DNA of 64,000 nt from Escherichia coli (GCF_024223415.1 NZ_CP100500.1), one strand, 5' to 3'. Positions 9,120 through 38,074 are shown, counted from the stretch's first letter. Notes: generated by a model from the letters alone, not told the origin. Program-made: numbers and translations.

Positions 9120-9139
9120 TGGTGCCCGGACTCGGAATC
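9120..9139 (-). repeat. 20-nt fragment identical to the 3' end of tRNA-Phe (GATTCCGAGTCCGGGCACCA); candidate island attachment-site repeat
   Basis: Reverse complement of tggtgcccggactcggaatc equals the tRNA-Phe acceptor/T-arm 3' end including CCA; upstream tRNA body is absent. Confidence 0.7.
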
Positions 9140-9326
9140 ATATCCACGATTAACATACTGTTTGTTATTGGTTTTGTTGCGATTTCTTGTAAACAGCGCC
9201 CCCACTAAAGCCCCCATAAAAAATCGCTTTGGTTTTGTGAGGGTTATCACGAAAAATCAATGTTAAGTGGAGGGCTTCGTTATGTGTGGAGTTATGACCC
9301 TGGCCCAAAATCAGTGCAGTGCTAAA

Positions 9327-17498: not shown

Positions 17499-17509
17499 TC
17501 TTCTTCCCC

Positions 17510-19708: not shown

Positions 19709-21021
19709 AATCTGAAGTCGGCCAGACCGTCCTCATCGGCATCTTCTGCCGATGTTATTTCATCCATATCACTGGGTTTTTCTTCCGCGATCGCGACACC
19801 GGCGATTAACTGTGACCACTGAATGGATGGGTTTTGTTCCAGCACGGCCAGCATATCCAGGAAGGCTTTAATCGTGTTTCGTGGCGTACGGAAATAGGCA
19901 TCGCCAATAGTGTTGCTACAGTGGCGTAAAAATGCCGTCAGAGCATCATCAGGAACCAGATACTTATCCGCATCGCCGCCGGAATAAACGTGACGAAGGT
20001 TTTTCAACAGAATATAGAGTTCTTCCGGCGTCAGGCTGGCTAAGTGCAGGGAAGGGGACGAATAATCAATGACACCAGCCCGCTGAGCGAAGCTATTTTC
20101 CGCCAGTCGGGACTGGAGCGCTTCGTAGCTGTACAACCCCTTGCGCGGATCGAACAGGAATTCTGGCGTACCGCCAAGTAAAAAACCGATATATTCAGCC
20201 GTCCCTTGCAGGCAGTCATTCAGAATACGCAGTATCTGTTCATAGTTGGCAACGCGGGCCTGAGTGTTACTGAGCTTATACAGATTGACCATCTCATCCA
20301 GATTCACCAGCAGACCCGCGTATCCGGCCTGACGGACAAACAGGCTCATCAGCTTTAGCGAATCGTAGAAAGAGGCATCAGAAATAATGGTGCGCACACC
20401 CAGATCGTTACGGGCGTCGGTTTTCGTGGTGTATTCACCTCTTAGCCAGCGGATGGCATTTGATTTCAATGTCTCATTATCCTGCTCGTGGCCCTGCCAG
20501 TAACATTCAATGACTTTGGCGAAATCGTAACCGCCAACCATATCAGACAGGGCGGCGAGCTTTTGGTGAATAATCGTCGGAACTGACACATTTGTACTTT
20601 CTGCTTCTTTTCTGGCTTCCGTGATAAAGCGCTCAACCACGCTTAATAATGCGTTTCCATCCGGCTTATTTCGGGTGGATAGATTTTTCATTAGCTCGGA
20701 GTAGAGGTTACGCGCCTGCCCACCCGTCGCGTGGATGCGCCTGTCCGGGGATAAATCGGCGCTGATTGTCACCAGCTTTTTTTCTAGCGCAATTGAGCGC
20801 ACAACGCTTAAAAAGAATGTCTTACCTGAGCCATATTCCCCAATAATCAGCCGGAGTCCTGCGCCGCCATCAGCGATACGCTCAATATCCTGATACAGCG
20901 CTTTTATTTCGTTGACCCGGCCAACCTGAATGTGCTGAATACCAATTTTAGGCGTAACACCTGACTTCAGTGACTGAATAATAGCGTCTCTTTCTTTGAG
21001 ACGAATACGAATGCCAGACAT
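19705..21021 (-). CDS. P-loop ATPase (438 aa); SngB-like
   Basis: Walker A GEYGSGKTF, Walker B-like LLVNLDEM; 3 nt after stop of TerB-domain gene. Confidence 0.6.
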   Translation of the reverse strand: MSGIRIRLKERDAIIQSLKSGVTPKIGIQHIQVGRVNEIKALYQDIERIADGGAGLRLIIGEYGSGKTFFLSVVRSIALEKKLVTISADLSPDRRIHATGGQARNLYSELMKNLSTRNKPDGNALLSVVERFITEARKEAESTNVSVPTIIHQKLAALSDMVGGYDFAKVIECYWQGHEQDNETLKSNAIRWLRGEYTTKTDARNDLGVRTIISDASFYDSLKLMSLFVRQAGYAGLLVNLDEMVNLYKLSNTQARVANYEQILRILNDCLQGTAEYIGFLLGGTPEFLFDPRKGLYSYEALQSRLAENSFAQRAGVIDYSSPSLHLASLTPEELYILLKNLRHVYSGGDADKYLVPDDALTAFLRHCSNTIGDAYFRTPRNTIKAFLDMLAVLEQNPSIQWSQLIAGVAIAEEKPSDMDEITSAEDADEDGLADFRL

Positions 21022-21024
21022 AAA

Positions 21025-23352
21025 TTATCCTTTGAGTTCTTGTGCAATTTCCAGGTCAACGTAAATATCATCGTCATCATCAAGCACCGGGGCGTCAACC
21101 TGTTCGAAAGACCAGTCATTAATTGCTTCAATCGCGCCGCTTAGCATCAAATTAAACTGCTGGCATAGCTCAGCGACTTCGTTTCGCGCCCAGCGTTCTT
21201 TTTCCTGCAAACGTTGGTAAAGTTGATGATGTGCTTCATCAAGACCTGCGCCAGCGTGTGGCGGGATCTCCGCTGGGGATTCGTCTGCGGGTTCATCTTC
21301 GGTGAAGATGGTGTTCAGTAACTGGCGTACGTCCGTTGTGTCGGATTCATGACGGGCAAGGATCCGTTCATCAAGAGAAAACGCGCCGCTCGTCGCTGAT
21401 GGGGTTTGTAACGTAGCTGTCGGAGTTGTTTCTGCGGTTGACAGTCGGTGGATATCGCTGGTAACGGCACTGCTGTCCAGACCGAGGCTGGCGTAGATTT
21501 TTTCCAGTTGTTTGATTTCAGCCGGATCGATTTTTCCATCTGCGCAGGCGACGCTGATAATCACGTTGCCAATAGTGGATTTATCTTTATCGCTGAGTTG
21601 CTCAATTTTACCTTTCAGACCAGCCTGATTTGCAGGCGTATTGAGCCGCCAGGTGAGGTAGGCGTGCAGCGAACGTTTTTCTGTTGGCGACAGCGCATCG
21701 TTATGATTAATCGTTTTCTCCAGCGCGGCCTGTTCAGCAACATCCACGCGCTTGTCCATTTGTGCAATCATGGCACCCAACCGAAGCGCCACAGAGACTG
21801 ACGTAAATTCCGCCGACGGTACGTAGAATTCCGCATGCCCTTCAGGAAATAAAACAAGATGACCTTCTGGATCCGGTCTGACAAGGTGATAGCGCATATC
21901 CGGCGCAATGCCGTAGCCTGCTCGCCGGGCGAAATTTTGCATCAGCTCGGCTTCTTTCTTATTAATCTTATCCGGTACAGGCATACCCAGTCTGGCCCAG
22001 AAATCAGCCACTGTCGCCAGTCCTGAATGTTCACGGATTTTCTCATCTGCCCAGTGTTTAAATTCAGCAAATAGACGTTCTGCATCTTCGGTCAGTATTT
22101 CATCGGGAAGCAGCATGATGGCGGCGACATCACTTGGTGAGGCATCTTTTTTACCGAGATAGCGACTGTAGGCATCCAGCGCGTTGATACAGGATTCTGC
22201 AACAGAAATTAATTTCTGAACTGGGGCTTTTAAAACGCTGGGATCGGGAAGATCCATCTGTTTTTTTACCTGAAGTTCCCGAAGCGTACCACTGGCGGGG
22301 GTATAGCTTAAATACAACCGTGTTTTATTGGGTTTGACGACAATACCGTCACCGTATTTTTGAGTATAACGCTGTTTGAATAATGCGGAAAATTCAGCAT
22401 GACATCGACGGGCAGGCGTGCGCAGGGTGTAATCAGGAAAATAGTATATCCATGCCAGTGCCAGAGCGGCACAAATAGGTTGTCCTTTATCGACCACAGT
22501 CGCTAGATTTAATCTGAACAGTAATGAACTCCTCGATGAGAAATATTCGTTTTCGGTATATATAGAAAGCAACTTCGGTCGGAGAACGATCATCATTTCC
22601 AGCAACTGCGTTGCATAATGCCGGAAGGAACCGCTTGCCTGAAATACGGTTCTCAGGCGCGATATCTCTTCGAATAATGCTTTGAATTCATCGTCAGAAA
22701 TGGCTTCTTGTGTGCCATCGGCCAGTACGCGGCGTTCTAGACCGTAAAAATAGATAAAAACATAGCCAACGGGGCAGCTCGCATCGCTGCGATCGCTTGC
22801 CAGCCAGTCAAGATAGGCGCCACGGCAGCGAGGGGAGAGTGTGGCAAAGCTGGGCCAGTATCCCAGTGACTCATCATAATAATGCCGTGAACCAGGCTCG
22901 ATGGGAAAAGCGTCATTAACCAGCGAAGCGTCGGAGTCATCGTTATAAAGATATCCATATTCTCCTGATGAATGTGTTTTTAACCGCCCGCCGAAATAAA
23001 AATAACCGTGATTAATGACGACATTTTGAATGGTGATGCTTTCTCCCGGTTTGACCCATCGCGCTGGAGTGGTATTGCTACGGGCGGCGTTTTCTCGTGA
23101 CGGCTGGCGGCTGGTGCTGTATTCAACCGTCTGCCCGTTCACAAAAGTAAAGGTTGCCAGTTCGTCATCATCGGAGGCCTGAGAATGCATATTTGTCATG
23201 CTGTTATCTGGCTTATTGAGAGATTTCTGTCGAGATGAATGATTTATTTTGGTGATGATTTTGTTGTTTACTCTGGGGGGCGGCGATTTTTTCTTTTTGG
23301 AAAACAGAAGCCAGATAACCGCCAGCATAATAACAAATATCCAGAAGCCCAT
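21025..23352 (-). CDS. Membrane-anchored TerB-domain protein (775 aa); SngA-like
   Basis: N-terminal TM helix (GFWIFVIMLAVIWLLF) followed by lysine run; C-terminal segment VIISVACADGKIDPAEIKQLEKIYASLGLD resembles TerB-type motif. Confidence 0.55.
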   Translation of the reverse strand: MGFWIFVIMLAVIWLLFSKKKKSPPPRVNNKIITKINHSSRQKSLNKPDNSMTNMHSQASDDDELATFTFVNGQTVEYSTSRQPSRENAARSNTTPARWVKPGESITIQNVVINHGYFYFGGRLKTHSSGEYGYLYNDDSDASLVNDAFPIEPGSRHYYDESLGYWPSFATLSPRCRGAYLDWLASDRSDASCPVGYVFIYFYGLERRVLADGTQEAISDDEFKALFEEISRLRTVFQASGSFRHYATQLLEMMIVLRPKLLSIYTENEYFSSRSSLLFRLNLATVVDKGQPICAALALAWIYYFPDYTLRTPARRCHAEFSALFKQRYTQKYGDGIVVKPNKTRLYLSYTPASGTLRELQVKKQMDLPDPSVLKAPVQKLISVAESCINALDAYSRYLGKKDASPSDVAAIMLLPDEILTEDAERLFAEFKHWADEKIREHSGLATVADFWARLGMPVPDKINKKEAELMQNFARRAGYGIAPDMRYHLVRPDPEGHLVLFPEGHAEFYVPSAEFTSVSVALRLGAMIAQMDKRVDVAEQAALEKTINHNDALSPTEKRSLHAYLTWRLNTPANQAGLKGKIEQLSDKDKSTIGNVIISVACADGKIDPAEIKQLEKIYASLGLDSSAVTSDIHRLSTAETTPTATLQTPSATSGAFSLDERILARHESDTTDVRQLLNTIFTEDEPADESPAEIPPHAGAGLDEAHHQLYQRLQEKERWARNEVAELCQQFNLMLSGAIEAINDWSFEQVDAPVLDDDDDIYVDLEIAQELKG

Positions 23353-23535: not shown

Positions 23536-24603
23536 TTATACCTCTGAATCACGCATAAAACGATTGATTTCATCTTGCGCATGACGAAGACGATCGGCAA
23601 TGTCAGCAAATCTGTCAGGCTGATGAAAGAACATTCCCCCTTCCACCGCCGTTTGATGATCCCCGGCGATCGCTGCGAACCGTTCAGCATCGTCAGGCAA
23701 CAGTTGCAGGTTTCCGACAATCACCTGAGTAAAATCCACACCCGGCACAGACCAGCGACGTTGCTTCATCTCGACCACATTGCGCATGGCTTCCAGCGTT
23801 TCATAGGGGCTGGCAAAATGATTACTCAGCAGACAATCCACATCATACCAATGGCGTGCCAGTCGGGCCGGATTTGGCGCTTTGGTTTGCGTGCAGAACT
23901 GGTGCAGCGCCGTCAGCTTTTCCCAAAGAATATAACCGGTGTCATAAGCGTTTACGGTCGCGGTGGGTAACTGGAGTGTATCCATGCCTGCGATCCCGGA
24001 CAGATAGCTTACAACAGGCATCAGATCGGTTGGCTTGCCACGATTTCGTCCGCCAAATTCCAGCAGAATATGATCGCGCTGATAGGCCATACTGTCTTCT
24101 TTCACCCGTGGGAAATAGATATCGACTTTTTCGCCACCACTGTCGGGTTCCATTTTTGCTTCAAGGCCCGGAATTTCATAAGTCTGAAAGCGTTGGTTTA
24201 ACCGTTCTGCCAGCGCGTTTGTCCATTCTGTTAAGCGCTCTTGCTGCTGCTCTCTGAACCGGCGATTCTGGCTGTTATTTAGCGTGCTTTGCTCCCATGC
24301 CTGCTGTTCTTCCTCTTCTGAGTGGCCTGCCAGATCGGCCCAGTGAACAGAAAGATCGATATCTTCAGAAAAACGCTCAATCACGTTCCAGCATTTGCTT
24401 AACGCCGTTCCACCTTTAAACGCGACAGATAAACCTCCCAGCAGCTCCTCATTAAAAAGTAACCGAAGGATCTCCGTTACCCAGAGATCCTTTTCCAGAA
24501 AGCTGGCTCCCAGCCCGGAGGGATGCTGCTGCGCCGCGTAAGAGAGGATTTCCTGAAGCTCGCGACGTTGTGATGCGCTCCGGTAGTAATCAAAAATGTC
24601 CAT
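23536..24603 (-). CDS. AbiEii-family nucleotidyltransferase toxin (ORF track start 24642; ATG at 24603 overlaps antitoxin stop)
   Basis: FKGGTALSKCWNVIERFSEDIDLSV motif characteristic of AbiEii/DUF1814 nucleotidyltransferases; ATGA overlap with upstream gene. Confidence 0.78.
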   Translation of the reverse strand: MDIFDYYRSASQRRELQEILSYAAQQHPSGLGASFLEKDLWVTEILRLLFNEELLGGLSVAFKGGTALSKCWNVIERFSEDIDLSVHWADLAGHSEEEEQQAWEQSTLNNSQNRRFREQQQERLTEWTNALAERLNQRFQTYEIPGLEAKMEPDSGGEKVDIYFPRVKEDSMAYQRDHILLEFGGRNRGKPTDLMPVVSYLSGIAGMDTLQLPTATVNAYDTGYILWEKLTALHQFCTQTKAPNPARLARHWYDVDCLLSNHFASPYETLEAMRNVVEMKQRRWSVPGVDFTQVIVGNLQLLPDDAERFAAIAGDHQTAVEGGMFFHQPDRFADIADRLRHAQDEINRFMRDSEV

Positions 24604-25262
24604 CAGAGCGCCTTTTGCAACGTTATCAGCTGCGAGCGCCACGCGTGAAGCGCAGGCTCATTCATCAACTTTCCGGCAATCTGCCGTGCTTTAGCGGACG
24701 GGATGCTCAGCCGATGAAAAGCATTCTTCAGCGTTTCCAATGGGGTATGTTGCTGATCCAGACTCAGCAAACCGCGCATCAGCTCTCCTTCAGGCCGGTT
24801 CAGCCAACGTAACCGACTTGCTGATTTATGCTGGATCCGTACCCGCTCATTGCCGACGCGGAATTCTCGCGTAGGGCCGTTTGACCAGTAGATGCGTTTA
24901 ACTGGCGCCTGCGTTTGCAGCCCCAGCCGGTAAGCGGCTTCCAGCCCCTGAAGGGTGATTTTGTAACCACGCTCTTTTGCCCATGCGGCGGCAACGGCAT
25001 TGGCGCTGGCAACAACGTTAACAGAGGGGATGTTTTTCAACGGCTTTGGCCGGGAGTAGAAACCGCGTTCAACCCGGACCAGCAGGCCTTCTTTGACCAG
25101 ACGGCTCATTGCCTGTTGTACCGACGCACGGCTTCCCAGCGAGTAAAACCCGCTGATGGAAAAGGGGATGCCACGCTTCATGCGGTGAACCCGCTGGCGG
25201 GCCAGAGCGGCAACAGACATTGATTCTCCTGTACTGACGTTTTCATTGATATGTATTTTCAT
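24603..25262 (-). CDS. AbiEi-like antitoxin / transcriptional regulator (type IV TA)
   Basis: 219 aa immediately upstream of and overlapping AbiEii; N-terminal wHTH-like region ...SRLVKEGLLVRVERGFYSRP. Confidence 0.65.
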   Translation of the reverse strand: MKIHINENVSTGESMSVAALARQRVHRMKRGIPFSISGFYSLGSRASVQQAMSRLVKEGLLVRVERGFYSRPKPLKNIPSVNVVASANAVAAAWAKERGYKITLQGLEAAYRLGLQTQAPVKRIYWSNGPTREFRVGNERVRIQHKSASRLRWLNRPEGELMRGLLSLDQQHTPLETLKNAFHRLSIPSAKARQIAGKLMNEPALHAWRSQLITLQKAL

Positions 25263-25418
25263 TATATCCCTTGTGTAGCAAGGAGTCTAACCTAAAAAAT
25301 GTCAGTAATATTCATTCTATGACAATGTTTAAAATGGCAGATATCAGTGAGGTAGCTTGCTGTAGGAAATTCCGACGATAAAATACCCACATACAGCAGG
25401 CGGTGATAAGGATATAGC

Positions 25419-27614
25419 ATGAGCATTCTCTCCATCCACGGCGTTCGCAGTTATCAGGGCGAAAGGCCAGTGGAGTTCGACTTGAGTAAGTATGTCACTC
25501 TTATCTATGGACAAAACGGCTCAGGAAAATCAACCGTTTCTGGTTACTTTTATAAGCATGGTCGTCCAGATTACAGCCAGTGCAGCCTGCGACCTCCACT
25601 GGATATGAACTACCTGGTGTTTAATCAGGAGTATGTAGACGATATTTTCAGCCAACCTTCTCAGCCGGGCATTTTCACTTTAAATAGTGAAAATGCAGAA
25701 ATTAAAACTGAAATAGATGCTCTGGAAGCGGAGAGTAAAGTTTTGTTTGCCCGGCGTGATGCTTTGGACGTGCAAAAACGCGACGTTGAGGGCATGGAAG
25801 AAAGTATTAAAAATGGCTCCGCAAAACAGATTTATAGTTCTACCGCAGAAATCAGAAAAACAGATTTATGGGATTTGATGTCTGGAACTAAACAGACCGA
25901 CAAACTTTTTCAGACCATCCTTGAACACACTGAAGTCGAAGATACTTCGACGCAGGAATTAACCGAAGAACTACACCGACTTGAAGCCAGTAAAGGCAAC
26001 CCTTACGCTTTGCTCGAAGCATTGCCAGCATCCCCTTTGAATGACAATGATATTGCGCTATTGATGCAACCTCTTATTCCAGCAGGTGATAGCCGTCTTG
26101 CTGCCGCAATTAACCAATTGGGCAACATTGACTGGGTGAGGAATGGACAGCAGTGGCTGAGTGATGACATTTGCCCATTTTGTCAAACGCCGATAGATGC
26201 CCGGCAACTTCAACAGGAAATCACTGCCCTTTTTGATACCTCATGGGAAGCTGCGATGGACCAGTTGCGGGAACTTCAGGCGCGATATCAATTCTGGCAC
26301 GATAAACCCGAACATATGCGGCAGTTAATAAAAACGTGTCCGTTAGTTGATCAGGAACATCCTGTTTATCTCTATCTACTTGAACTGGAGCAGGCGTATC
26401 AAAGAAATAAATTGCATATCGATGAGAAATTGACATCACCCTCTGCGTCGATTGCTGTTGAGGATCTTTCTGCTCTGGCTGGCAATGTCTCTGTGCAGAT
26501 AGCCAGTATTAATACAATAATAAGCGAACATAACCGAAAGGCTGAAAATTATCAGACTGAACGGGTTAGACTGAAACAGAGACTACTCAGTCATATCCGA
26601 AAACTGGCTACCGATACGATAATTAACCATGATGAACAACTAGCAGAACTTGCTGAAAAATTGGCAAAATTAACGGTGTCTCGGGATGAAATTACGGCCC
26701 AGCTTGATACGCTGAACGCAATTATTCGCGGTAAATCCAGCCTGATCGTCAATACGCAGGAAACGATTGAACGTATTAATCACAGCTTGGATAGCCTTGG
26801 AATCACTGGATTCCGCATTGCTCCCTATGACGATCGGGATGATTATCGTCTGGTGAGGGAAGGTGAGAACAGCGATACGCCTGTTTTTAGTAGTCTGAGT
26901 GAAGGGGAAAAGACGCTGATTGCTTTTCTCTATTTTCTGGAGACTTGCACAGGGAGAAAAAGTCGTGATGACAATGACCAACGAAAACGTTTAATTGTCA
27001 TTGATGATCCTATATCCAGCCTGTCGCAAAACTATGTTTTTGAAATAGCATCGTTGATCCAGCATCAGGTTATACGTGCCAGAATTGGTGAGAAAGTGAT
27101 TATTCTGACGCACAGCCTGTTTTTCTTTCAGGAGTTACTGCTTTCTGCGGAACGGAAGAAAAGGGCAGCGGGTTCTTGCCCACCAGAATGGACGCTTTAT
27201 CGGGTATCCAAATCCTTACATAGTTCTGCTTCCCTTGTTTCCGAAAAAGAATTACTGAACGACTATCAGGCACTCTGGTATGTCTTACGCCACGCCCAAA
27301 AAGATGACATTGCCAGTGTGGTGATCCCAAATACGATGCGGCAAATCCTTGAATACTATTTTGGTTTTTCGGGGAAAAGTGAGACGCTTCACCGGGCGCT
27401 TGAAACACTGGCGAGCGGGCCTGAAGGTGAACCTGGTTTCCGTATATTTGCTCGTTATCTAAATCGACATTCTCACCAGGATGCCCGCAATATCTCTCTT
27501 CATGAGGGGGCTTCGGTTGAACGCTATCTTACCTGGTTTAAGAAAGTATTCGAGGCGGCAAAGGATGAAGAGCATTACACATCAATGATGGAAAAGACGA
27601 CACAAACGACCTGA
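25419..27614 (+). CDS. ABC-type (SMC/RecF-like) ATPase, candidate RloC/PrrC-like anticodon-nuclease family defence protein
   Basis: Walker A GQNGSGKST at N-terminus, Walker B/D-loop LIVIDDPISSLS and H-loop ILTHS ~500 aa later, CPFC (CxxC) in the intervening predicted coiled coil, ~170-aa C-terminal domain. Confidence 0.45.
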   Translation: MSILSIHGVRSYQGERPVEFDLSKYVTLIYGQNGSGKSTVSGYFYKHGRPDYSQCSLRPPLDMNYLVFNQEYVDDIFSQPSQPGIFTLNSENAEIKTEIDALEAESKVLFARRDALDVQKRDVEGMEESIKNGSAKQIYSSTAEIRKTDLWDLMSGTKQTDKLFQTILEHTEVEDTSTQELTEELHRLEASKGNPYALLEALPASPLNDNDIALLMQPLIPAGDSRLAAAINQLGNIDWVRNGQQWLSDDICPFCQTPIDARQLQQEITALFDTSWEAAMDQLRELQARYQFWHDKPEHMRQLIKTCPLVDQEHPVYLYLLELEQAYQRNKLHIDEKLTSPSASIAVEDLSALAGNVSVQIASINTIISEHNRKAENYQTERVRLKQRLLSHIRKLATDTIINHDEQLAELAEKLAKLTVSRDEITAQLDTLNAIIRGKSSLIVNTQETIERINHSLDSLGITGFRIAPYDDRDDYRLVREGENSDTPVFSSLSEGEKTLIAFLYFLETCTGRKSRDDNDQRKRLIVIDDPISSLSQNYVFEIASLIQHQVIRARIGEKVIILTHSLFFFQELLLSAERKKRAAGSCPPEWTLYRVSKSLHSSASLVSEKELLNDYQALWYVLRHAQKDDIASVVIPNTMRQILEYYFGFSGKSETLHRALETLASGPEGEPGFRIFARYLNRHSHQDARNISLHEGASVERYLTWFKKVFEAAKDEEHYTSMMEKTTQTT

Positions 27615-29132
27615 TTAACAACAGAAGAGGACCATCACCCCGGGATTAACCGTTAGCAGTTCGGCAAAGAGCGCATGTGCTGGCACACGTGCTCCCAGCG
27701 ACCAAAACGGAAACGCAGATACTGGTGAACCAGCACAGTTTTCTGTTTCATACCGGGCTCCTTTCTTTCGACGCCGACAAGCTGTCGGCGAGCCCCGTAC
27801 ACCTCGTACGAGCGTGACTATCGTGTAGAGGCTAAGGATCCCGGGGGATGGCTTCCGCTATCGTAGGCGATTTCATTTGATGATTCAATCTTTGCTTTGG
27901 ATAACAATTAATTGAGATGGTCGTATTTTAGTATTAGCACTGTATGTCTTAGCTATAGTGCTGCTGAAATGACCAATTCGGGAACCGTGATGGTTTCCTG
28001 GAAACTCTCTTGCTTATTTTACGATGCTGGCCGATTATCACAAAACGTTGCTTAAACGCTGATTGGATATGGTGCTTTGTGGCAGTCATTCGCTTGTCTG
28101 ACGTTGCCATGGCTTACATTTGATGTAGCCAATGTAGAAGCCGCTTGGTGAATTGTTCTATGACATGGTCTACTACTTCGTTGTGGAAAATGAAGATGCG
28201 GTACCGGGTATGTACCATTGATGGTGAGAGGCTTATCGACGAATGGACCGTACGATATTGCTTGGCTGGAAAGGTGTGTGAAGCATTGTAGATTTACATT
28301 CACAAAATCGCGAGAAAATCTACAAACAACTCTATTTCCAGAAAAATGAGTTTCCCCTTTCTGCGCCAGAAATAAAGGCGTAATCTCCCTCCTGCACTAT
28401 GTTGTCGTGGACAACTCCCTTGCTTCATGGTCTGCAAGAAGCCCCTGATTTATCAGGATGACCAGCCCTTTCTACCGGTACGACCTCCGCAATACCGGAA
28501 CGCGAAAGCGTTTGAGGCTAAGAGTACATACACATGAACGGCTCCATCGTCATCGCTTAACGGCAACAGCCTTCACCGGCTGAACGGCCTCTCTTTGCCG
28601 GAATTTTCCTGGCCCACTTATACCCTGCTGATAACCAGCGCCTTTTTACATGACGGGCTGCGGCCTGCATTGCCGAAGGCTTTGCTGCCGCGTGACCGTC
28701 ATCCTGCACCAGAGTGTTAATTTTCAGACCCTGCGCCAGACCAGGGCGTCAGTCGCTCACGCGCAGTGAGAGACTGACGCCCGCAGAAATTTCCATCTGC
28801 ACCAGTCATATCAACTGTTCCAGCCACAGGCGAGCTTCTGACGTCGCTTTTCAGCATTTATCTCAACCATTCATTCACAAAAGGAGAACATGAGCCAGTA
28901 CCGGAGGAGGACCACCAGGACGGTCCGGGGGATGACCAGCTCACGCTGGCGGCTGCTCTGAGAGCACAACCGATACCCCGCAAAACCTCAACAGCCGTCG
29001 CCCCGGCGCTCAGGTACTGCTCGCAGCCCCGACAAAAATCAGGGGCTATCGGCCTACGCGCCGGGGAAAGCTGTATCCGTTGTTTGTTGTGGTTTTGTGA
29101 AAATCAGGAGCGAGAGAAGAGGAAAACGTAAA

Positions 29133-30014
29133 ATGGGTATGCTGGAAAGAGAGATGAAAAACCTGGCGCGGCAGGCTGGCGGGTCGCACAAGACTGTCCA
29201 TGACCGTATCGCCATGGCAGGACGTTTCTGCGAACGCCTGATGGAACTGAACGTTCAGATACGCTATGTCCACCATTTAAAGGCGAAGCATATTGAGGCG
29301 TATATTCAGATGCGGCTGGCGCAGGGGATTCAGAAAAATACGCTGCATAACGAAACGGCGGCTATCCGTAAAATCCTGACGCAGGCCGGGCGCGAAAAGC
29401 TGGCGCAGAGTGAACGGATATCGAATAAATCGCTGGGGCTGGCTGGCGTATCCCGCAATGGTACGCGGAAAGCCATCACGCCGGAATATTATCAACAGAT
29501 GGCAGAGGCTGCCCGGCTGAAAGATGCGGGGCTGGCGGCGGCGCTGGAACTGACGCGGCTGATGGGGCTACGCTCTCAGGAGGCAGTACGCTGTTCCGGT
29601 TCGCTGAAAACCTGGCGCGAAGCACTGGAGAAAGGTGATACCCGGCTAACCGTGGTACTCGGTACCAAAGGTGGACGGCCCCGTGACACGATTATTCAGG
29701 ATACTGGCGCAGTTAAACAGGCGCTGGATAAGGCCATCGTGGTGGCAGAACGGCGCAACGGCAGGCTGATTGATGCGGCGAGCCTTAAACAGGCAATGAA
29801 ATACTGGCGCAACCAGACTTTGCGTATGGGGCTGACGGGCAAATACTCCCCGCACTCACTGCGCTACGCCTGGGCGCAGGACGATATCTGCCGGTATCTG
29901 GCGCAGGGGTTCAGCGAAAAAGAAGCGCTGGCGATGGTGGCAATGGACCTAGGGCATGGCGACGGGCGTGGTCGCTGGGTGAAGCAGGTGTATGCACGGA
30001 ATGATGAAGCGTGA
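29133..30014 (+). CDS. Small tyrosine recombinase-like protein (ORF track start 29097 is GTG)
   Basis: C-terminal catalytic-like residues: ...GLRSQE..., TVVLGTKGGRPRD, HSLRYAWAQ (HxLR), MDLGHGDGRGRWVKQVYAR (LGH...Y); SD-like gaggaaaa upstream of ATG 29133. Confidence 0.5.
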   Translation: MGMLEREMKNLARQAGGSHKTVHDRIAMAGRFCERLMELNVQIRYVHHLKAKHIEAYIQMRLAQGIQKNTLHNETAAIRKILTQAGREKLAQSERISNKSLGLAGVSRNGTRKAITPEYYQQMAEAARLKDAGLAAALELTRLMGLRSQEAVRCSGSLKTWREALEKGDTRLTVVLGTKGGRPRDTIIQDTGAVKQALDKAIVVAERRNGRLIDAASLKQAMKYWRNQTLRMGLTGKYSPHSLRYAWAQDDICRYLAQGFSEKEALAMVAMDLGHGDGRGRWVKQVYARNDEA

Positions 30015-30195
30015 TTTTTTGCTGGCGCAGCGAAAGGAAAAAGGCCAAAGGGTAAAGGTGGGTTAAGGGTAACAGCTCCTTACCGGAAAGGGCCAAAGGG
30101 TTGGGACTGGCGCAGATCGACGTCTATCCACGGATATCTGGCGCAAATAAAAAGCAGATCCCTGATGCAGTGGATCTGCTTTCCGGCATTGTCCG

Positions 30196-31502
30196 TTAGC
30201 TGGCGCAGGCCGCCTGAATCTGCCTGTCATACCGATACGGCGGGATAAATTTCTGCCGACAGGCGTCGAGATAATCCGACCACCACTGCATCATCTGTGT
30301 GCGCTCGTCGAGGTGCTCCGCCTTGTGGATATACGCGGCACGAACGTGATTACGCTCCTGATGGCTCATTTGTCGCTCCACGGCGTCTTTTGACCAGCGC
30401 CCGGACTCGATCAGCGCACTACAGGCCATCGTGCGGAAACCGTGACCGCAAACATCTGCCTGTGTGTTGTAGCCCATAACCCGCAGTGCTTTGTTGATGG
30501 TGTTTTCGCTCATCGGCTTACGCGGATCGTGGTCGCCGGGAAACAGTAACTCACTACTGCCGGACAACAGTTTTAACTGTTTGAGTATTGTCACCGCCTG
30601 CGCTGACAACGGCACCAGATGCTGCATCTTCATCTTTGCGCCGCGATTTGAATAACGCACGCCCGGAATCGGCTCCCGCTCCGCCGGGATGGTCCACATT
30701 GCGCCATCCAGATTGATCTCCGTCCAGCGGGCAAAACGTAGCTCGCTGGAACGGATAAAGATCAGCAGATTAAGCTGTACCGCCAGACGGGTTAACAGCC
30801 TGCCGGAATAGCCTTCAATACGCTCCAGCATCTCCGGTATTTTCTCCAGCGGCAGGGCGGGGTAGTGGTTTTTGGGCGGCGGTGCGATAGCCCCGGTCAG
30901 ATCGTTCGCCGGATTGCTGTCGATTATCCCCTCCTGCACCGCGTAACGCATGATTGCCGTGGTGCGCTGCTGAATCCGTGCAGCGGTCTCCAGCGTACCT
31001 TTTCGTTCCGCCACCCGCAGCGGGATCAGCAGATCGGCAGTTTTCAAATCAGAGACCGGAATTTGCCGATCAGTGGAAAAACATGCAGCTCCAGCGAGCG
31101 CAGGACTTTGGCGGCATGGGCTTCATTCCAGCGGATATTGCCCGCTACCCACTTACGGGCGATATCTTCAAAGGTGTTGCCGCTTTTACGTGCAAACTTC
31201 TCCTGCTGTTTTTTCACGCCGGGATCGCTGCCTGCGCTCAATACCGAGCGGGCATCCTCGCGCAGCTTGCGGGCATTTGCCAGAGAAACGGCCGGGTAAG
31301 CACCAAACGCCAGCTTCTTCTCTTTACCGCCGAAGCGGTACTTGAGGTGCCAGAGTTTAGATCCGTTGGGCTTTATCAGCAGGTACAGACCCTGCGCATC
31401 GCTGAGTTTCCAGGATTTATCAAGCGGCTTTGCATTACGGATGGCGGTATCGGTGAGGGACATAGTGGGGCTCCATAGTTTATCGAACCGACGGGCCCCC
31501 AA
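30196..31502 (-). pseudogene. P4-type tyrosine integrase split by a frameshift near 31045-31060
   Basis: N-terminal ORF (31044..31502) ...LKYRFGGKEKKLAFGAYPAVSLANARKLR...VFPLIGK; C-terminal ORF (30196..31047) ...ADLLIPLRVAERKGTLETAARIQQR...HGFRTMACSALIESG...; the two pieces are in different frames. Confidence 0.8.
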
Positions 31503-31625
31503 TTAAGCCCCCAAAAACTATGGATGTCAAAAAATCTGGCAGTACCTGTTGGTACTCCAGACTCTTTGTAACTAACTGATTTTTTGATGTTTCAGGACTC
31601 ATAGAGACGCCATGAAACTAAATAG

Positions 31626-31647
31626 TGGTGCCGGACTCGGAATCGAA
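31626..31647 (-). repeat. 22-nt fragment matching the tRNA-Phe 3' end with one base deleted; second copy of the attachment-site repeat
   Basis: Reverse complement TTCGATTCCGAGTCCGG-CACCA; same orientation as the copy at 9120..9139; ~125 nt beyond the integrase start. Confidence 0.65.
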
Positions 31648-31757
31648 TATTTCATTTATCATATTGATATTTGTGTGATTTATTTGGTTTGATTAAAAAT
31701 GTACCCTCATTTGTACCCGTAGTCCCTTTTGATATTGAAAGGGAATCACACTCGGGA

Positions 31758-32600
31758 TCAGGCTGAGAGCACAGAAAGAAAGTGCTTGGCTATTATATCG
31801 TTAATTCTGTCAATCAGTTCCAGCCTTTTGAAAGTGATGTGTGCAGATCCCTTCTTAAAATATTTAATGATGAACATCTCGTCTTCATAGCGCTCTTTAC
31901 CCTGAACGGACTGGATGTGACCATCCAGACGAATAGTGATGTTTTCCCGGTTGTCGGGGATGGGGGTGCCGCTGAACAGATGTAGCATTCTTTCCAGGTC
32001 GGCGAGTCGGTCAGTCTCTTGTCCGGTGATAAGATGAAATCCCCACCGGTCCCATCTCACCAGATTGTTGATAATGATTTTACTTCCAAATTTACAGGGA
32101 GAGTTGGTTTTATAATTCCAGCTCAGTTCCCTGAAGACGTTAATCACTCCCCGCTTAAACACCTCATCCTTGTTCTGGTGCAGTTGTTCAAATGTGCTCA
32201 GAATGTTCGCTTCGCTGATTTCCGGAAAATTATCGTACTCCAGTGACCGGTACCATGTATCACGGGCCTGTGCATCCATTAATGACAGCATCCCGGAACG
32301 TTGCATCAGGTCACGCCAGATTTCACGGTCAAGGTTGCGGGTAATGGCTTTCATTATGGTTTCCGGTTTCTCAGTCAGCCAGCAACCACAGCGAAAATCC
32401 TGTTTCATGGCCCAGTCCGGGGCGGTTTTATCTCCAATACTTTCTGTCATTGCTGAGATTTCTGTCAGTTGCCGGATAAGTGTGTCGATTTGCATCAGTG
32501 TGGTCTTTCGTACAGCCAGAATGTGTCCGATTGAGGTGGAACAGATAACGTCCGTATGCCCGTTGACCACTTCAGGACGGGAGATTGTGATACCTGACAT
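31758..32600 (-). CDS. Hypothetical protein, distal gene of the CP4-like module
   Basis: 280-aa ORF co-directional with the CbtA/CbeA cluster. Confidence 0.5.
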   Translation of the reverse strand: MSGITISRPEVVNGHTDVICSTSIGHILAVRKTTLMQIDTLIRQLTEISAMTESIGDKTAPDWAMKQDFRCGCWLTEKPETIMKAITRNLDREIWRDLMQRSGMLSLMDAQARDTWYRSLEYDNFPEISEANILSTFEQLHQNKDEVFKRGVINVFRELSWNYKTNSPCKFGSKIIINNLVRWDRWGFHLITGQETDRLADLERMLHLFSGTPIPDNRENITIRLDGHIQSVQGKERYEDEMFIIKYFKKGSAHITFKRLELIDRINDIIAKHFLSVLSA

Positions 32601-37189: not shown

Positions 37190-38074
37190 TCAGAACAGGT
37201 GATCCCACAGTGTGACCAGCAGGTGGATAATGCGGTCCCGGGTTTTGCGCAGAAGCTGTAACATCCAGGCCGGAAAACTGAAACGGGCAACGGCGTCGTC
37301 AAAACTTTTCCCGATGGTTTCACCAAAAGTCTGTTGTGCGTGTTTCCGGGCCTGTTCAGAGCGGTTTTCCCCCCGGATATGTGAATAAACCGCACTGGTT
37401 GCCTGTGGTGGCAGTGCGTGGATCATCAGCGACACAAACGCCGGAAGGTTCCAGCCGACAGGTGCGGCAACGGAGAGTACCGGAAATGATGAAGGGAACA
37501 GGGTTGCCACCCGGGCTGTCACCGTCGCCAGTGAGAGCGCCTGCTGACGGGACGGGCATTTTTCTGTGTCGTTCCATTCTTCAGCAGGAAACACGCGATC
37601 GGCATGGCTGAGAACAAACAGAAAACGCGAGGGATCTGCACCTTCATTCAGTAAAAACTGATGCATGGCAATATCAGCAGCATACGCACGTTCATCAGCC
37701 CGCAGGATCCAGATAATCAGATCCAGTTCGGGCAGTAACTGACTGTAAAGTGCCCGGTATTCCTGATCATGCTGTGGTGTTTCGCCAGTGCCGGGCAGAT
37801 CGACCAGCGTCATTCTTCGTTCACCGGGCTGAAAGGTAAGACGATGAGCCTGACGGGTGCAGCCGTTCAGCGGATGCGTGGCGCAGACACGGGACTGAAA
37901 AATGGCATTGCACAGGCTGCTTTTTCCGGCACCGGATTTACCCATAATGCCAATAACGGGTTCGTACTGAATGACGCTGCGAAGATGTTCAAGGATTTTC
38001 TGGCGAATTTCTTCAGGAAGAAAGGTCAGATGTGACTTTACGTGTGCGGAGAGGGAAGAATGGCTGAATGACAT
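37190..38074 (-). CDS. GTPase of the YeeP/YkfA/YfjP family (50S ribosome-binding GTPase-like)
   Basis: G1 motif GIMGKSGAGKSSL, DLPG switch region; first gene of the CP4-like module. Confidence 0.8.
   Translation of the reverse strand: MSFSHSSLSAHVKSHLTFLPEEIRQKILEHLRSVIQYEPVIGIMGKSGAGKSSLCNAIFQSRVCATHPLNGCTRQAHRLTFQPGERRMTLVDLPGTGETPQHDQEYRALYSQLLPELDLIIWILRADERAYAADIAMHQFLLNEGADPSRFLFVLSHADRVFPAEEWNDTEKCPSRQQALSLATVTARVATLFPSSFPVLSVAAPVGWNLPAFVSLMIHALPPQATSAVYSHIRGENRSEQARKHAQQTFGETIGKSFDDAVARFSFPAWMLQLLRKTRDRIIHLLVTLWDHLF

What the first reader, a model, noticed from the sequence alone, without database searches (positions are those of the whole stretch)
29133..31502. Two tyrosine recombinases at the island edge, the P4-type integrase inactivated by a frameshift
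The P4-type integrase is split between frames near 31045-31060: the N-terminal piece ends ...VFPLIGKFRSLI* and the C-terminal piece begins ...ADLLIPLRVAERKG. Next to it is a ~293-aa protein with R, K, HxLR and LGH...Y catalytic-type residues but a minimal N-terminal domain. The island may be immobilised, or the small recombinase may be a resolvase-like helper.
Basis: partly seen in the sequence, partly recalled or inferred. Interest (0 to 1): 0.4.

Follow-up and report, generated by a model that had tools for sequence, protein, structure and literature searches.

The report
Dead integrase beside a mobilization relaxase
A 22.5-kb anti-phage defence island in the E. coli chromosome has lost its integrase to a one-base deletion, and the small "second recombinase" beside it is most likely a recombinase-like relaxase that, with a conserved DNA/RNA region upstream, lets such islands ride on conjugative elements.

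Summary
A P4-type integrase gene (30196-31463, minus strand) is split by loss of one C from a CCC run (31058-31059). The identical lesion is in about 20 independent complete E. coli genomes, so it is inherited and not a sequencing error. A 293-aa protein (29133-30014) has the full tyrosine-recombinase fold and all catalytic residues.

The pair lies at an internal junction of two islands stacked at tRNA-Phe (pheV). It belongs to a 22.5-kb defence island (9120-31647) bounded by tRNA-Phe 3'-end repeats.

The small protein is not a resolvase-like helper on current evidence. It belongs to Pfam PF12834+PF12835. It is 49% identical to the SGI-4 protein used as a seed of the MOB_M relaxase family, and it is a distant relative of SGI1 MpsA.

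About 800 bp of conserved non-coding DNA travel with the gene: a STAXI-like element, a GC-rich hairpin kept by compensatory changes, and the Rfam EFASI RNA. In reference genomes of other species, EFASI preceded the gene in 72 of 72 loci and the hairpin in 66 of 72. The same region occurs without the gene in O157 TAI islands.

Best reading: a decayed integrative mobilizable element that keeps an intact mobilization module. Relaxase activity is inferred, not shown.

The parts
9120..9142 (+). Distal attachment-site repeat of island 1: a copy of the tRNA-Phe 3' end (TGGTGCCCGGACTCGGAATCATA, 21 of 23 bases), just after yghD
   Evidence: 0 matches expected by chance; tRNA-Phe sequence read from L002
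9327..10426 (-). IS3-family transposase at the far end of island 1
   Evidence: RefSeq annotation of collinear strain EC1515, mapped to the window; ORF listed
10555..17534 (-). Two large ORFs (743 aa and 1583 aa) of unknown function in the island cargo
   Evidence: no PADLOC hit; 'hypothetical protein' in RefSeq
17510..23352 (-). Shango defence system: SngC, SngB and SngA
   Evidence: PADLOC E 1e-273, 4e-187 and 5e-97
23536..25262 (-). AbiE defence/toxin-antitoxin pair (AbiEii and AbiEi/DUF6088)
   Evidence: PADLOC E 3e-193 and 7e-46; RefSeq annotation
25419..27614 (+). AAA_13 ATPase (PADLOC candidate system PDC-S06). The block 23554-27935 is 91% nucleotide-identical to a Serratia fonticola island.
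28293..29132 (+). Conserved non-coding region that travels with the small recombinase gene. It is 92-94% identical at the aspV, thrW and pheU islands of E. coli, and about 72% identical in Klebsiella and Serratia, where synonymous sites of the gene are saturated.
   Evidence: The ORFs called here in Klebsiella are broken in all E. coli copies.
28400..28545 (+). STAXI-like element, below the Rfam threshold here
   Evidence: 18.2 bits, E 0.78. Hits recur at the same relative place and strand in L008 (37 bits), L020 (27) and L018 (25). Full STAXI lies at this place in SGI-4 (110.6 bits) and in the O157 TAI island (134 bits).
28704..28805 (+). Three direct repeats CTGCACCAG / CTGCGCCAG / CTGCACCAG (28704-28712, 28731-28739, 28797-28805) that bracket the hairpin. 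The first and third are invariant in nine loci from five genera.
28744..28782 (.). GC-rich inverted repeat or hairpin (17-nt arms, 5-nt loop), 351-389 nt upstream of the ATG. It is the candidate core of an origin of transfer.
   Evidence: As ssDNA, dG is -15 to -22 kcal/mol with z -5 to -8.5 in six variants. The base CGTCA...TGACG is conserved and the upper stem varies with compensatory changes; it is present in 66 of 72 loci. It is also in SGI-4, L022 and the O157 TAI island.
28890..29023 (+). EFASI RNA (Rfam RF02957), on the same strand as the gene and 110 nt upstream of it
   Evidence: 112.7 bits against a gathering score of 51.2, E 9e-24, full-length model. Upstream of every PF12835 gene tested: 10 of 10 by Rfam and 72 of 72 by nhmmer.
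29133..30014 (+). Small tyrosine-recombinase-fold protein (293 aa; PF12834+PF12835), a putative MOB_M-type mobilization relaxase. The gene is intact.
   Evidence: dN/dS is 0.14-0.27.
30196..31463 (-). P4-type integrase pseudogene (Arm-DNA-bind_3 / Phage_int_M / Phage_integrase). It has a single lesion and the catalytic residues are retained downstream of it.
31058..31059 (-). Frameshift site: CC where relatives have CCC (codon 136 of the repaired protein)
31626..31647 (+). Proximal attachment-site remnant: 22 nt of the tRNA-Phe 3' end, one C short. It marks the junction between island 1 and island 2.
   Evidence: In strains with a single island, the complete tRNA-Phe (pheV) sits here.
31758..32600 (-). 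DUF4942 gene, the first gene of the neighbouring CP4-like island 2. It is not part of island 1.

Best explanation
The region is the mobility end of a decayed integrative mobilizable element: a 22.5-kb defence island inserted at the 3' end of tRNA-Phe (pheV). A second island later inserted at the same tRNA and displaced it.

Its P4-type integrase was inactivated by loss of one C in a CCC run. That lesion has been inherited by a lineage of E. coli.

The adjacent 293-aa protein is not a second integrase or a resolvase. It is a member of the PF12835 / MOB_M family of tyrosine-recombinase-like relaxases, as are SGI1 MpsA and the SGI-4 seed protein.

Inferred mechanism:
1. The protein binds the conserved hairpin and direct-repeat region about 350 nt upstream of its own gene.
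2. It nicks one strand through Tyr287.
3. It hands the DNA to the mating apparatus of a helper conjugative element. By analogy this would be an MPF-G ICE of the SGI-4 type.

The EFASI RNA lies between the hairpin and the gene, the same position as SGI1's essential sgm-sRNA.

In this window the mobilization module is intact, but excision functions are lost. The island can no longer leave the chromosome on its own.

Shown: the lesion and its inheritance, the island boundaries, family membership, fold and catalytic residues, and the conserved cis architecture.

Inferred: relaxase activity, the identity of the oriT, the role of EFASI, and the helper.
For: Frameshift:
- One C is missing relative to a 92%-identical pheU copy.
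- The repaired protein aligns without gaps to intact orthologues at 88-91% identity.
- The 81 bp around the site are identical in 19 genomes, and one more has the same length.

Island:
- tRNA-Phe 3'-end repeats lie at 9120-9142 and 31626-31647.
- In single-island strains the integrase abuts pheV.
- The tandem arrangement is seen in EC1515.

Family membership of the small protein:
- PF12834 and PF12835 match at E 1e-34 and 3e-58.
- It is 49% identical (E 8e-98) to WP_033567157.1 of SGI-4. The preprint 10.64898/2026.01.13.699239 names that protein as a MOB_M seed.
- SGI1-type MpsA was recovered through a published primer and carries R162, H247, R250, H251 and Y319 exactly as published.
- MpsA matches PF12835 above the cut-off but not PF00589.
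- MpsA aligns collinearly with this protein (E 3e-7).
- The motifs GLRxxE, GTKGGRxR, HxxR and LGHG..Y are shared.
- MpsA is essential for SGI1 transfer (PMC6414798).

Fold: pLDDT 96.8, and all top PDB matches are tyrosine recombinases.

Selection: dN/dS is 0.14-0.27.

Distribution:
- The family is nearly absent from phages (2 of 50,697 records).
- It is rare on plasmids (53 of 72,556 records).
- This fits the preprint's 'almost exclusively chromosomal, next to integrases, iMOB about 23 kb'.

Cis region:
- About 800 bp are conserved far above the synonymous-site level.
- The hairpin is kept by compensatory changes.
- EFASI is upstream in 72 of 72 loci and the hairpin in 66 of 72.
- The order STAXI, hairpin, EFASI, gene is also found in SGI-4.
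- The same three elements occur without the gene in the O157 TAI island. The preprint classes TAI islands as oriT-only hitchers whose oriT resembles the experimentally localised SGI-4 oriT.
- In SGI1 the oriT lies 304-428 bp upstream of mpsA, with the sgm-sRNA between them (PMC6414798, PMC9299015). Here the repeat and hairpin block lies 328-429 bp upstream, with EFASI between.
Against: - No member of this clade has been shown to nick DNA or to be needed for transfer.
- The link to MpsA is remote: 23% identity, and the spacing between HxxR and Tyr differs.
- The nic site of MpsA itself was never mapped (PMC6414798).
- SGI-4 also encodes a TraI-like relaxase (PMC6543542). The role of the PF12835 protein in SGI-4 is therefore an assignment by the preprint, not an experiment.
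- I could not read the paper that localised the SGI-4 oriT. Its overlap with the STAXI-hairpin-EFASI region is inferred by triangulation.
- The protein keeps every residue needed for complete recombination.
- In duplex form the 'hairpin' looks like a dyad-symmetric recombinase core site. Compensatory changes do not distinguish a hairpin from a symmetric binding site.
- Only 29 of 71 loci have a convergent integrase within 2.5 kb.
- No helper element is visible in the window.
Confidence: 0.62

Rival explanations
1. The small protein is a true site-specific recombinase. It would act on the dyad-symmetric site at 28744-28782 as duplex DNA, either resolving multimers of the excised island circle (a cer/dif-like system) or serving as a second integration or inversion system.
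For: - It has the full two-domain tyrosine-recombinase fold and a complete catalytic set: R147, K179, H241, R244, H275 and Y287.
- It has weak collinear similarity to XerC.
- The cis site has 17-bp inverted arms around a 5-bp spacer, like a recombinase core site.
- One site per element would be enough for a resolution system.
- A small Caballeronia plasmid carries a family member.
Against: - Its nearest characterised relative, MpsA, is needed for conjugative transfer, and the cis site next to MpsA is an oriT (PMC6414798).
- The protein is 49% identical to a designated MOB_M seed.
- The cis region extends over about 650 nt, with STAXI-like and EFASI structured elements. That is far more than a core site needs.
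- The same cis region persists without the gene in TAI islands. This fits a trans-acting relaxase and oriT mimicry better than a private resolution site.
- The Caballeronia plasmid already has a separate canonical tyrosine recombinase.
- XerC/D model scores are far below the cut-off.
Confidence: 0.2
2. In this island the whole mobility end is an inert remnant. The small gene is merely not yet degraded and the conserved upstream region has no present function here.
For: - The integrase is dead.
- The regulatory block (isrK, C4, Ash, p153, HTH_35) is deleted.
- The proximal att remnant has a 1-nt deletion.
- The small gene itself is frameshifted in two E. coli relatives: L006 at thrW and L008 at pheV.
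Against: - The gene is full length here, with all catalytic residues.
- dN/dS is 0.24-0.27 even among E. coli copies.
- The gene and its cis region are 92-94% conserved at four different tRNA loci and hit about 1,300 E. coli genomes.
- This reading concerns present activity only. It does not conflict with the family assignment.
Confidence: 0.13
3. The frameshift is a sequencing or assembly error, or a programmed ribosomal frameshift, and the integrase is functional.
For: The lesion lies in a short homopolymer (CC against CCC). It is the only defect in the gene.
Against: - The sequence is identical in about 20 independently sequenced complete genomes.
- No X XXY YYZ slippery heptamer is present at the site (read directly).
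- Intact orthologues in the other genera examined are encoded in one frame.
- The pheU copy carries a different lesion, a 40-bp deletion. This shows that these integrases decay repeatedly.
Confidence: 0.02

Closest known systems
SGI1 mobilization module (oriT, sgm-sRNA, mpsA, mpsB) of Salmonella genomic island 1
   Same: - MpsA and the window protein are both PF12835 members with a tyrosine-recombinase fold. They share the GLRxxE, GTKGGRxR, HxxR and LGHG..Y motifs, with the nucleophile Tyr near the C-terminus.
- Both have a GC-rich inverted-repeat region about 300-430 bp upstream of the gene and a structured RNA gene in between.
- Both sit in an integrative element that has its own separate integrase.
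   Different: - Identity is only 23%.
- MpsA needs a separate 98-aa MpsB that resembles a core-binding domain. The window protein has no such neighbour; its N-terminal core-binding domain matches PF12834, whereas MpsA matched only the catalytic-domain model PF12835.
- EFASI is not found in the SGI1-type locus.
- There is no sequence similarity between the two oriT regions.
- SGI1 integrates at trmE and is mobilised by IncA/C plasmids. The helper here is unknown.
MOB_M relaxase of the ICE SGI-4 (WP_033567157.1) and the 'iMOB' islands of the 2026 preprint 'Genomic Islands as minimal hitchers of conjugative elements'
   Same: - 49% identity over 98% of the length.
- The same order STAXI, hairpin, EFASI, gene.
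- The island size of 22.5 kb matches the reported iMOB mean of 23 kb.
- It lies next to an integrase (here a pseudogene), as reported for 96% of MOB_M genes.
   Different: - SGI-4 is a self-transmissible ICE of about 80 kb with its own mating apparatus and a full STAXI.
- This island has no transfer genes, only a sub-threshold STAXI-like element, and a dead integrase.
- I could not run the preprint's own profile or read its tables.
MobK (plasmid pIGRK) and TcpM (plasmid pCW3), tyrosine-recombinase-like relaxases
   Same: They work in the same proposed way: a tyrosine-recombinase-fold protein with a catalytic Tyr that nicks at an oriT. The MobK nuclease needs its Tyr (PMC8152469).
   Different: I tested no sequence relationship. 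According to that paper they lack the core-binding domain and are plasmid-borne. The window protein has a core-binding domain and is chromosomal.
P4-type integrases of tRNA-Phe (pheV/pheU) islands of Enterobacteriaceae
   Same: - The same Arm-DNA-bind_3 / Phage_int_M / Phage_integrase architecture.
- The same location next to the tRNA-Phe 3' end, with direct repeats.
- 88-91% identity to intact orthologues.
   Different: It is frameshifted at codon 136. It is separated from pheV by a second island that has its own integrase in related strains (61% identical).
EFASI (RF02957) and STAXI (RF01728) RNA motifs
   Same: EFASI is matched at full length, well above threshold, and lies 'several hundred bp downstream of STAXI and upstream of an integrase gene'. 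That is how Rfam describes the family.
   Different: - Rfam gives no function for either motif.
- Here the 'integrase' is identified as a MOB_M-type protein.
- A conserved hairpin lies between the two motifs.
- STAXI is only sub-threshold in this island.
Tandem accretion of islands at one attachment site (CIME/ICE arrays such as ICESt1)
   Same: Two elements lie head to tail at the same tRNA 3' end. An internal att remnant separates them, and the inner element has lost its integrase.
   Different: Nothing here shows that the outer island's integrase acts on the inner one.

Membership tests
P4-type tyrosine integrase (arm-binding type) | Domain order Arm-DNA-bind_3, then Phage_int_M, then Phage_integrase catalytic domain | tested here: met
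   all three domains are present, split across the two ORFs at Phage_int_M positions 38/45
P4-type tyrosine integrase (arm-binding type) | Catalytic R, HxxR, H and Y residues | tested here: met
P4-type tyrosine integrase (arm-binding type) | One uninterrupted reading frame (a functional gene) | tested here: not met
   1-nt deletion at codon 136, shared by about 20 genomes
P4-type tyrosine integrase (arm-binding type) | Lies next to the 3' end of a tRNA gene, with direct repeats bounding the element | tested here: met
   the full tRNA-Phe is adjacent in single-island strains; in the window there is a 22-nt remnant at 31626-31647 and a repeat at 9120-9142
PF12835 / MOB_M tyrosine-recombinase-like relaxases | Match to Pfam PF12835 (Integrase_1) above the gathering score | tested here: met
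   196.4 bits against 23. SGI1-type MpsA also passes (42.7 bits).
PF12835 / MOB_M tyrosine-recombinase-like relaxases | BLASTP similarity to a named MOB_M seed (the preprint's criteria: over 30% identity and over 50% coverage) | tested here: met
   49% identity, 98% coverage, E 8e-98 to WP_033567157.1
PF12835 / MOB_M tyrosine-recombinase-like relaxases | Score of at least 84 on the CONJscan MOB_M profile | not testable with these tools
   The profile (the preprint's Dataset S2) is not held.
PF12835 / MOB_M tyrosine-recombinase-like relaxases | Conserved nucleophile tyrosine and R-K-H-R-H set | tested here: met
   Y287, R244 and H275 are invariant; R147, K179 and H241 are at least 90% conserved in 91 sequences
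PF12835 / MOB_M tyrosine-recombinase-like relaxases | A cis-acting oriT next to the gene | tested here: inconclusive
   A conserved hairpin, repeats, STAXI-like element and EFASI lie upstream. A gene-less copy is in TAI islands. No functional test was possible.
PF12835 / MOB_M tyrosine-recombinase-like relaxases | Site-specific nicking, and a requirement for conjugative transfer | not testable with these tools
   Experimental. Shown only for MpsA (transfer), MobK and TcpM, according to PMC6414798 and PMC8152469.
SGI1-type mpsAB module | A separate small MpsB accessory gene directly downstream of the relaxase gene | tested here: not met
   no conserved ORF in 30015-30195. The protein has its own N-terminal core-binding domain matching PF12834.
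XerC/XerD chromosome or plasmid dimer resolvases | Match to the XerC/XerD equivalog models above their cut-offs | tested here: not met
   TIGR02224 scores 21.3 bits against a cut-off of 335; XerD gives no hit
EFASI RNA (RF02957) | Covariance-model score above the gathering score, and a position upstream of an 'integrase' gene | tested here: met
   112.7 bits against 51.2, model positions 1-133 of 133, ending 110 nt before the ATG
STAXI RNA (RF01728) | Covariance-model score above the gathering score | tested here: not met
   18.2 bits against 40.5. Recurrent sub-threshold hits at the same place in relatives suggest a divergent relative.

The most novel reading that the evidence does not exclude
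The tripartite region STAXI, hairpin, EFASI is the origin of transfer and relaxosome platform of the enterobacterial MOB_M relaxases. This would give a function to two orphan Rfam motifs, described in 2010 (STAXI) and later (EFASI). EFASI would be the counterpart of SGI1's essential sgm-sRNA.

If so, the tRNA-linked islands of more than a thousand E. coli genomes are present or former conjugative hitchers. These include the aspV T6SS island and the thrW, pheV and pheU defence islands.

An island like this one has a live mobilization module but a dead integrase. It could start Hfr-like transfer of the neighbouring chromosome, or move only when a tandem neighbour's integrase excises it.
Probability: 0.3. 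Interest if true: 0.65.

Novelty: new member of a known kind. Interest (0 to 1): 0.42.

Why it matters
A frameshifted island integrase is routine on its own. The value is in the reclassification.

Genes annotated 'integrase domain-containing protein' or 'DNA-binding protein' next to tRNA-island integrases are very common. A query spanning this gene and the adjacent integrase (28900-31800) hit 1,348 of 5,426 complete E. coli genomes. A separate scan of species reference genomes found more than 430 related loci.

These genes are probably mobilization relaxases, not recombinases. That changes how the mobility of defence, T6SS and pathogenicity islands should be predicted.

The gene is always accompanied by EFASI, and in relatives by STAXI. 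The same cis block exists without the gene in O157 TAI islands. Together these give a concrete, testable function for two structured-RNA motifs that have had none.

For this strain, the defence island (Shango, AbiE, PDC-S06) is fixed in place unless an integrase is supplied in trans.

Tried and rejected
- **Protein-coding explanation of the upstream 800 bp.** The 111-aa and 65-aa ORFs called there in Klebsiella are broken by stops and frame changes in every E. coli copy. A 23-codon mini-ORF with a strong Shine-Dalgarno sequence at 28891 is not kept in frame in L009 or L020. It coincides with the 5' end of EFASI.
- **Intrinsic terminator.** The hairpin has no T-run after it.
- **Programmed frameshift.** There is no slippery heptamer, and orthologues are in one frame.
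- **PIME family** (preprint 10.64898/2026.01.12.698999). It uses a different site (guaA), different genes (TraJ/TraI) and an RP4-like oriT.
- **Solved structures by sequence.** No hit.
- **Supplements of the two genomic-island papers.** Not held.
- **The paper localising the SGI-4 oriT.** Not held.
- **Literature search for 'STAXI' alone.** It returned only psychology papers.
- **The search for related loci with the 91-sequence alignment.** It failed for lack of conserved stretches; a closer alignment worked.
- **Formal pair counting on the MAFFT alignment A2.** I dropped it because a one-column register shift in the stem would have mis-scored the pairs. Individual folds and the list of stem variants were used instead.
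- **The loose pattern CGTCA..TGACG.** It also hits unrelated places, including one inside the gene itself. Only the tight hairpins 320-400 nt upstream are counted.
Full report
**1. The observation**

The window is Escherichia coli chromosome around the pheV tRNA locus. On the minus strand, ORF 31044-31502 ends ...VFPLIGKFRSLI*. ORF 30196-31047 continues with ...KTADLLIPLRVAERKG in another frame.

Pfam places Arm-DNA-bind_3 and the first 38 positions of Phage_int_M in the first piece. Positions 45-96 of Phage_int_M and the Phage_integrase catalytic domain fall in the second. This is one P4-type integrase gene, broken once.

The neighbouring plus-strand ORF 29133-30014 (293 aa) matches PF12834 and PF12835 at E 2e-34 and 3e-58.

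**2. The frameshift**

The minus strand reads GGCAAATTCCGGTCTCTGATTTGA. A 92%-identical copy of the gene at the pheU locus of strain DETEC-S792 reads AAATTCCCGGTC. The window has therefore lost one C of a CCC run (plus-strand 31058-31059; codon 136).

Restoring it gives a 422-aa protein, starting at the ATG at 31463. That protein aligns without a single gap to an intact 419-aa pheV integrase of E. coli R32_14_1F (88%) and to a Lonsdalea integrase (91%). R238, H341-x-x-R344, H368 and Y378 are retained. There is no second lesion, so the inactivation is probably recent.

It is not a sequencing error. The 81 bp around the site are 100% identical in 19 complete RefSeq genomes from people, chickens, pigs, mink and wastewater. 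One more genome has a substitution but the same length. PGAP flags the gene 'frameshifted' in the two relatives I opened. No in-frame copy of this allele exists at pheV among 5,426 genomes.

The pheU copy has a different lesion, a 40-bp deletion. Conversely, R32_14_1F has an intact integrase but a frameshifted small gene. The mobility genes of these islands decay repeatedly in E. coli.

**3. Where the pair sits**

In strains such as SCU-316 the pseudogene lies directly beside tRNA-Phe (pheV), next to yqgA. In the window, as in EC1515, a second island lies between them. That island has a CP4-like module with DUF4942, cbtA/cbeA and other genes.

The window keeps only a 22-nt remnant of the tRNA 3' end at 31626-31647, one C short. 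ARAGORN finds no tRNA in the window. A second copy of the tRNA-Phe 3' end (21 of 23 bases) lies at 9120-9142, just after yghD. Island 1 is therefore 9120-31647, about 22.5 kb.

Its cargo is anti-phage defence: Shango (SngABC), AbiE, and a PDC-S06 AAA_13 ATPase. It also carries two large unknown ORFs and an IS3.

The 'island edge' of the finding is thus the internal junction of two islands stacked at one attachment site.

**4. What the small recombinase is**

Its AlphaFold2 model (pLDDT 96.8) matches only tyrosine recombinases over both domains: XerA, lambda Int 75-356, XerH, IntI4 and Cre, with TM 0.55-0.64. It has a normal core-binding domain and lacks only an arm-binding domain.

In an alignment of 91 family members, R108, G145, E150, R184, R244, G274, H275 and Y287 are invariant. 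R147, K179 and H241 are at least 90% conserved.

The family is large. It has 1,508 clusters at 90% identity and 834 representatives at 50% identity. It is under purifying selection, with dN/dS 0.14-0.27.

It is not a phage family, despite its Pfam description. Only 2 of 50,697 phage records have a hit, and neither looks like a genuine phage genome: one record is titled as a Salmonella houtenae strain (582 kb) and the other is an unannotated 3-kb fragment. It is rare on plasmids, at 53 of 72,556 records. It scores far below the XerC/XerD cut-offs.

**5. Link to relaxases**

A genomic-island classification paper uses PF12835 as the signature of the SGI1 'atypical relaxase' MpsA (PMC10484663). 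I tested this directly.

A 27-nt primer from the supplement of Kiss et al. 2019 retrieved a metagenome contig. The contig carries a 321-aa ORF followed by a 99-aa ORF. The 321-aa ORF has R162, H247, R250, H251 and Y319 exactly as published for MpsA. It matches PF12835 at 42.7 bits (cut-off 23), while PF00589 stays below its cut-off.

It aligns collinearly with the window protein (23% identity, E 3e-7). The two share the motifs GLRxxE, GTKGGRxR, HxxR and LGHG..Y. MpsA is essential for SGI1 transfer (PMC6414798).

A much closer relative is WP_033567157.1 of the ICE SGI-4 (49% identity, E 8e-98). A 2026 preprint lists this accession among the seeds of its MOB_M relaxase profile. It reports that MOB_M is the commonest chromosomal relaxase family, that 96% of its members lie near an integrase, and that they occur either in MPF-G ICEs or in relaxase-only islands averaging 23 kb. 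The window island fits that description.

**6. The cis region that travels with the gene**

Homology with the aspV (T6SS), thrW (dnd) and pheU islands of E. coli starts abruptly at about 28293 and runs to the end of the gene, at 92-94% identity. About 840 bp of DNA without a conserved ORF therefore belong to the module.

Against Klebsiella and Serratia this DNA is still about 72% identical, although synonymous sites of the gene are saturated (dS about 1.2). ORFs called there in Klebsiella are broken in all E. coli copies.

The region contains four features.

(a) **A STAXI-like element at 28400-28545.** It is sub-threshold here (18 bits). Hits recur at the same relative place and strand in three relatives, at 25-37 bits.

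(b) **Three CTGCRCCAG direct repeats.** They bracket the hairpin.

(c) **A GC-rich hairpin at 28744-28782.** It has 17-nt arms.

(d) **The Rfam EFASI RNA at 28890-29023.** It scores 112.7 bits against 51.2, on the gene's strand, and ends 110 nt before the ATG.

EFASI means 'Enterobacteriaceae, frequently around STAXI and integrases', and Rfam gives no function for it. The authors who described STAXI already wondered whether it acts as single-stranded DNA (PMC2864571).

**7. How general the architecture is**

Rfam finds EFASI upstream of all ten PF12835 genes I had fetched, including SGI-4. There the order is STAXI (110.6 bits), hairpin, EFASI, gene.

In 79 loci from reference genomes of many Enterobacterales species (57-90% protein identity), an EFASI profile hit the expected place in 72 of 72 loci with enough upstream sequence. 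A tight hairpin lay 320-400 nt upstream of the ATG in 66 of 72.

The hairpin base CGTCAC(T)T...A(A)GTGACG is conserved. The upper stem occurs in dozens of different sequence variants that keep pairing. The E. coli type has changed CAC/GTG to CAG/CTG on both arms. As single-stranded DNA, six variants fold at -15 to -22 kcal/mol, with z -5 to -8.5.

The SGI-4 upstream region also finds, in O157:H7 and other STEC, a non-coding stretch of the TAI (ure/ter) island. That stretch carries STAXI (134 bits), the hairpin and EFASI (48.9 bits), but no PF12835 gene. The preprint classes TAI islands as 'oriT-only' hitchers whose oriT is about 60% identical to the experimentally localised SGI-4 oriT. By triangulation, the STAXI-hairpin-EFASI block is the oriT region of this relaxase clade.

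The geometry also parallels SGI1. There the oriT lies 304-428 bp upstream of mpsA and an essential small RNA lies in between. Here the repeat and hairpin block lies 328-429 bp upstream, with EFASI in between.

**8. State of this particular island**

Relatives in Klebsiella, Serratia, Lonsdalea, Tatumella and E. albertii share one backbone: cargo, then isrK and C4 RNAs, Ash, a 153-aa protein and an HTH_35 protein, then the cis region, the PF12835 gene, a convergent intact integrase of 418-420 aa, and the tRNA.

The window lacks everything between the cargo and the cis region, and its integrase is dead.

The AbiE/PDC-S06 cargo block is 91% identical to that of a Serratia fonticola island, while the backbone is only about 70% identical. 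Cargo has therefore moved between backbones.

Self-excision is very probably lost. The mobilization module is intact. A related integrase on the neighbouring island (61% identical in EC1515) could conceivably act in trans, but nothing here shows it.

**9. Rivals and limits**

The main rival is that the protein is a true recombinase acting on the dyad-symmetric site as duplex DNA. It has every catalytic residue, and compensatory changes cannot tell a hairpin from a symmetric binding site.

Four points weigh against this rival:
- the kinship with MpsA and the MOB_M seed;
- the size and structured nature of the cis region;
- its gene-less copy in TAI islands;
- a small Caballeronia plasmid that carries both a family member and a separate canonical recombinase.

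No member of this clade has been tested biochemically. SGI-4 also has a TraI-like relaxase. I could not read the SGI-4 oriT paper.

Only 29 of 71 loci have a convergent integrase within 2.5 kb. It is the cis region, not the integrase, that is the constant partner of the gene.

**10. Verdict**

The pseudogene is ordinary. The relaxase family has been recognised since 2019 and was charted broadly in a 2026 preprint. The finding is therefore a new member of a known kind.

The unplanned result is that EFASI, a conserved hairpin and a STAXI or STAXI-like element form a constant cis block with these genes. I did not find this stated in the literature I could search, and it is directly testable.

Noticed in passing
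window 28890-29023 and 28400-28545; L013 2051-2845; L103 6990-7770: EFASI RNA (an Rfam family of unknown function) lies directly upstream of every PF12835 gene examined. STAXI, or a sub-threshold STAXI-like element, lies several hundred bp further upstream. The same block occurs without the gene in the O157:H7 TAI (ure/ter) island.
   Followed up: yes
window 10555-12786 and 12783-17534 (minus strand): Two large ORFs (743 aa and 1583 aa) lie next to the Shango genes in the defence island. They have no PADLOC match and are 'hypothetical' in RefSeq. They may be an uncharacterised defence system.
   Followed up: partly
window 23554-27935 against L016 3725-8106: The AbiE plus PDC-S06 (AAA_13) cargo block is 91% nucleotide-identical to a Serratia fonticola island. 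The adjacent mobility backbone is only about 70% identical. This points to recent cargo exchange between islands of different genera.
   Followed up: partly
L007, L008, L009, L018, L019 and L020 (for example L018 4294-5228): Relatives of the island carry a P4/P1-like regulatory block (isrK RNA, C4 antisense RNA with its a1/b1 targets, an Ash protein, a 153-aa protein and an HTH_35 protein) between the cargo and the mobilization region. The block is entirely missing from the window.
   Followed up: partly
L005 (aspV, beside T6SS genes) and L006 (thrW, beside dnd/dpt genes): The same small gene plus its cis region (92-94% identical) sits at the tRNA-proximal end of the aspV T6SS island and of a thrW phosphorothioation island. 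At aspV an IS has disrupted the integrase. At thrW there is no integrase and the small gene is frameshifted. A query spanning this gene and the adjacent integrase (28900-31800) hit 1,348 of 5,426 complete E. coli genomes.
   Followed up: partly
window 28704-28712, 28731-28739 and 28797-28805: Direct repeats CTGCACCAG / CTGCGCCAG / CTGCACCAG flank the hairpin. The first and third are invariant across five genera. They may be protein-binding sites.
   Followed up: partly
window 28891-28962: A mini-ORF (MSQYRRRTTRTVRGMTSSRWRLL) follows an invariant AAGGAGAACATGA at the 5' edge of EFASI. Its frame is not conserved in Klebsiella or E. albertii, so it is probably not coding.
   Followed up: yes
window 31648-64000: Island 2 starts with a CP4-like module (DUF4942, cbtA/cbeA-type toxin-antitoxin genes). 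It continues with a GTPase (37190-38074), a low-GC stretch at 38-41 kb (34-39% GC), PTS and transketolase genes, and a YadA-anchor adhesin (51312-52601). Beyond 36.2 kb it no longer matches strain EC1515. No tRNA lies within the window, and I did not search island 2 for an integrase.
   Followed up: partly
L023 (Caballeronia zhejiangensis plasmid p4, 8.2 kb): A small plasmid typed 'non-mobilizable' carries a PF12835-family gene and also a separate canonical tyrosine recombinase. The two therefore probably do different jobs.
   Followed up: no
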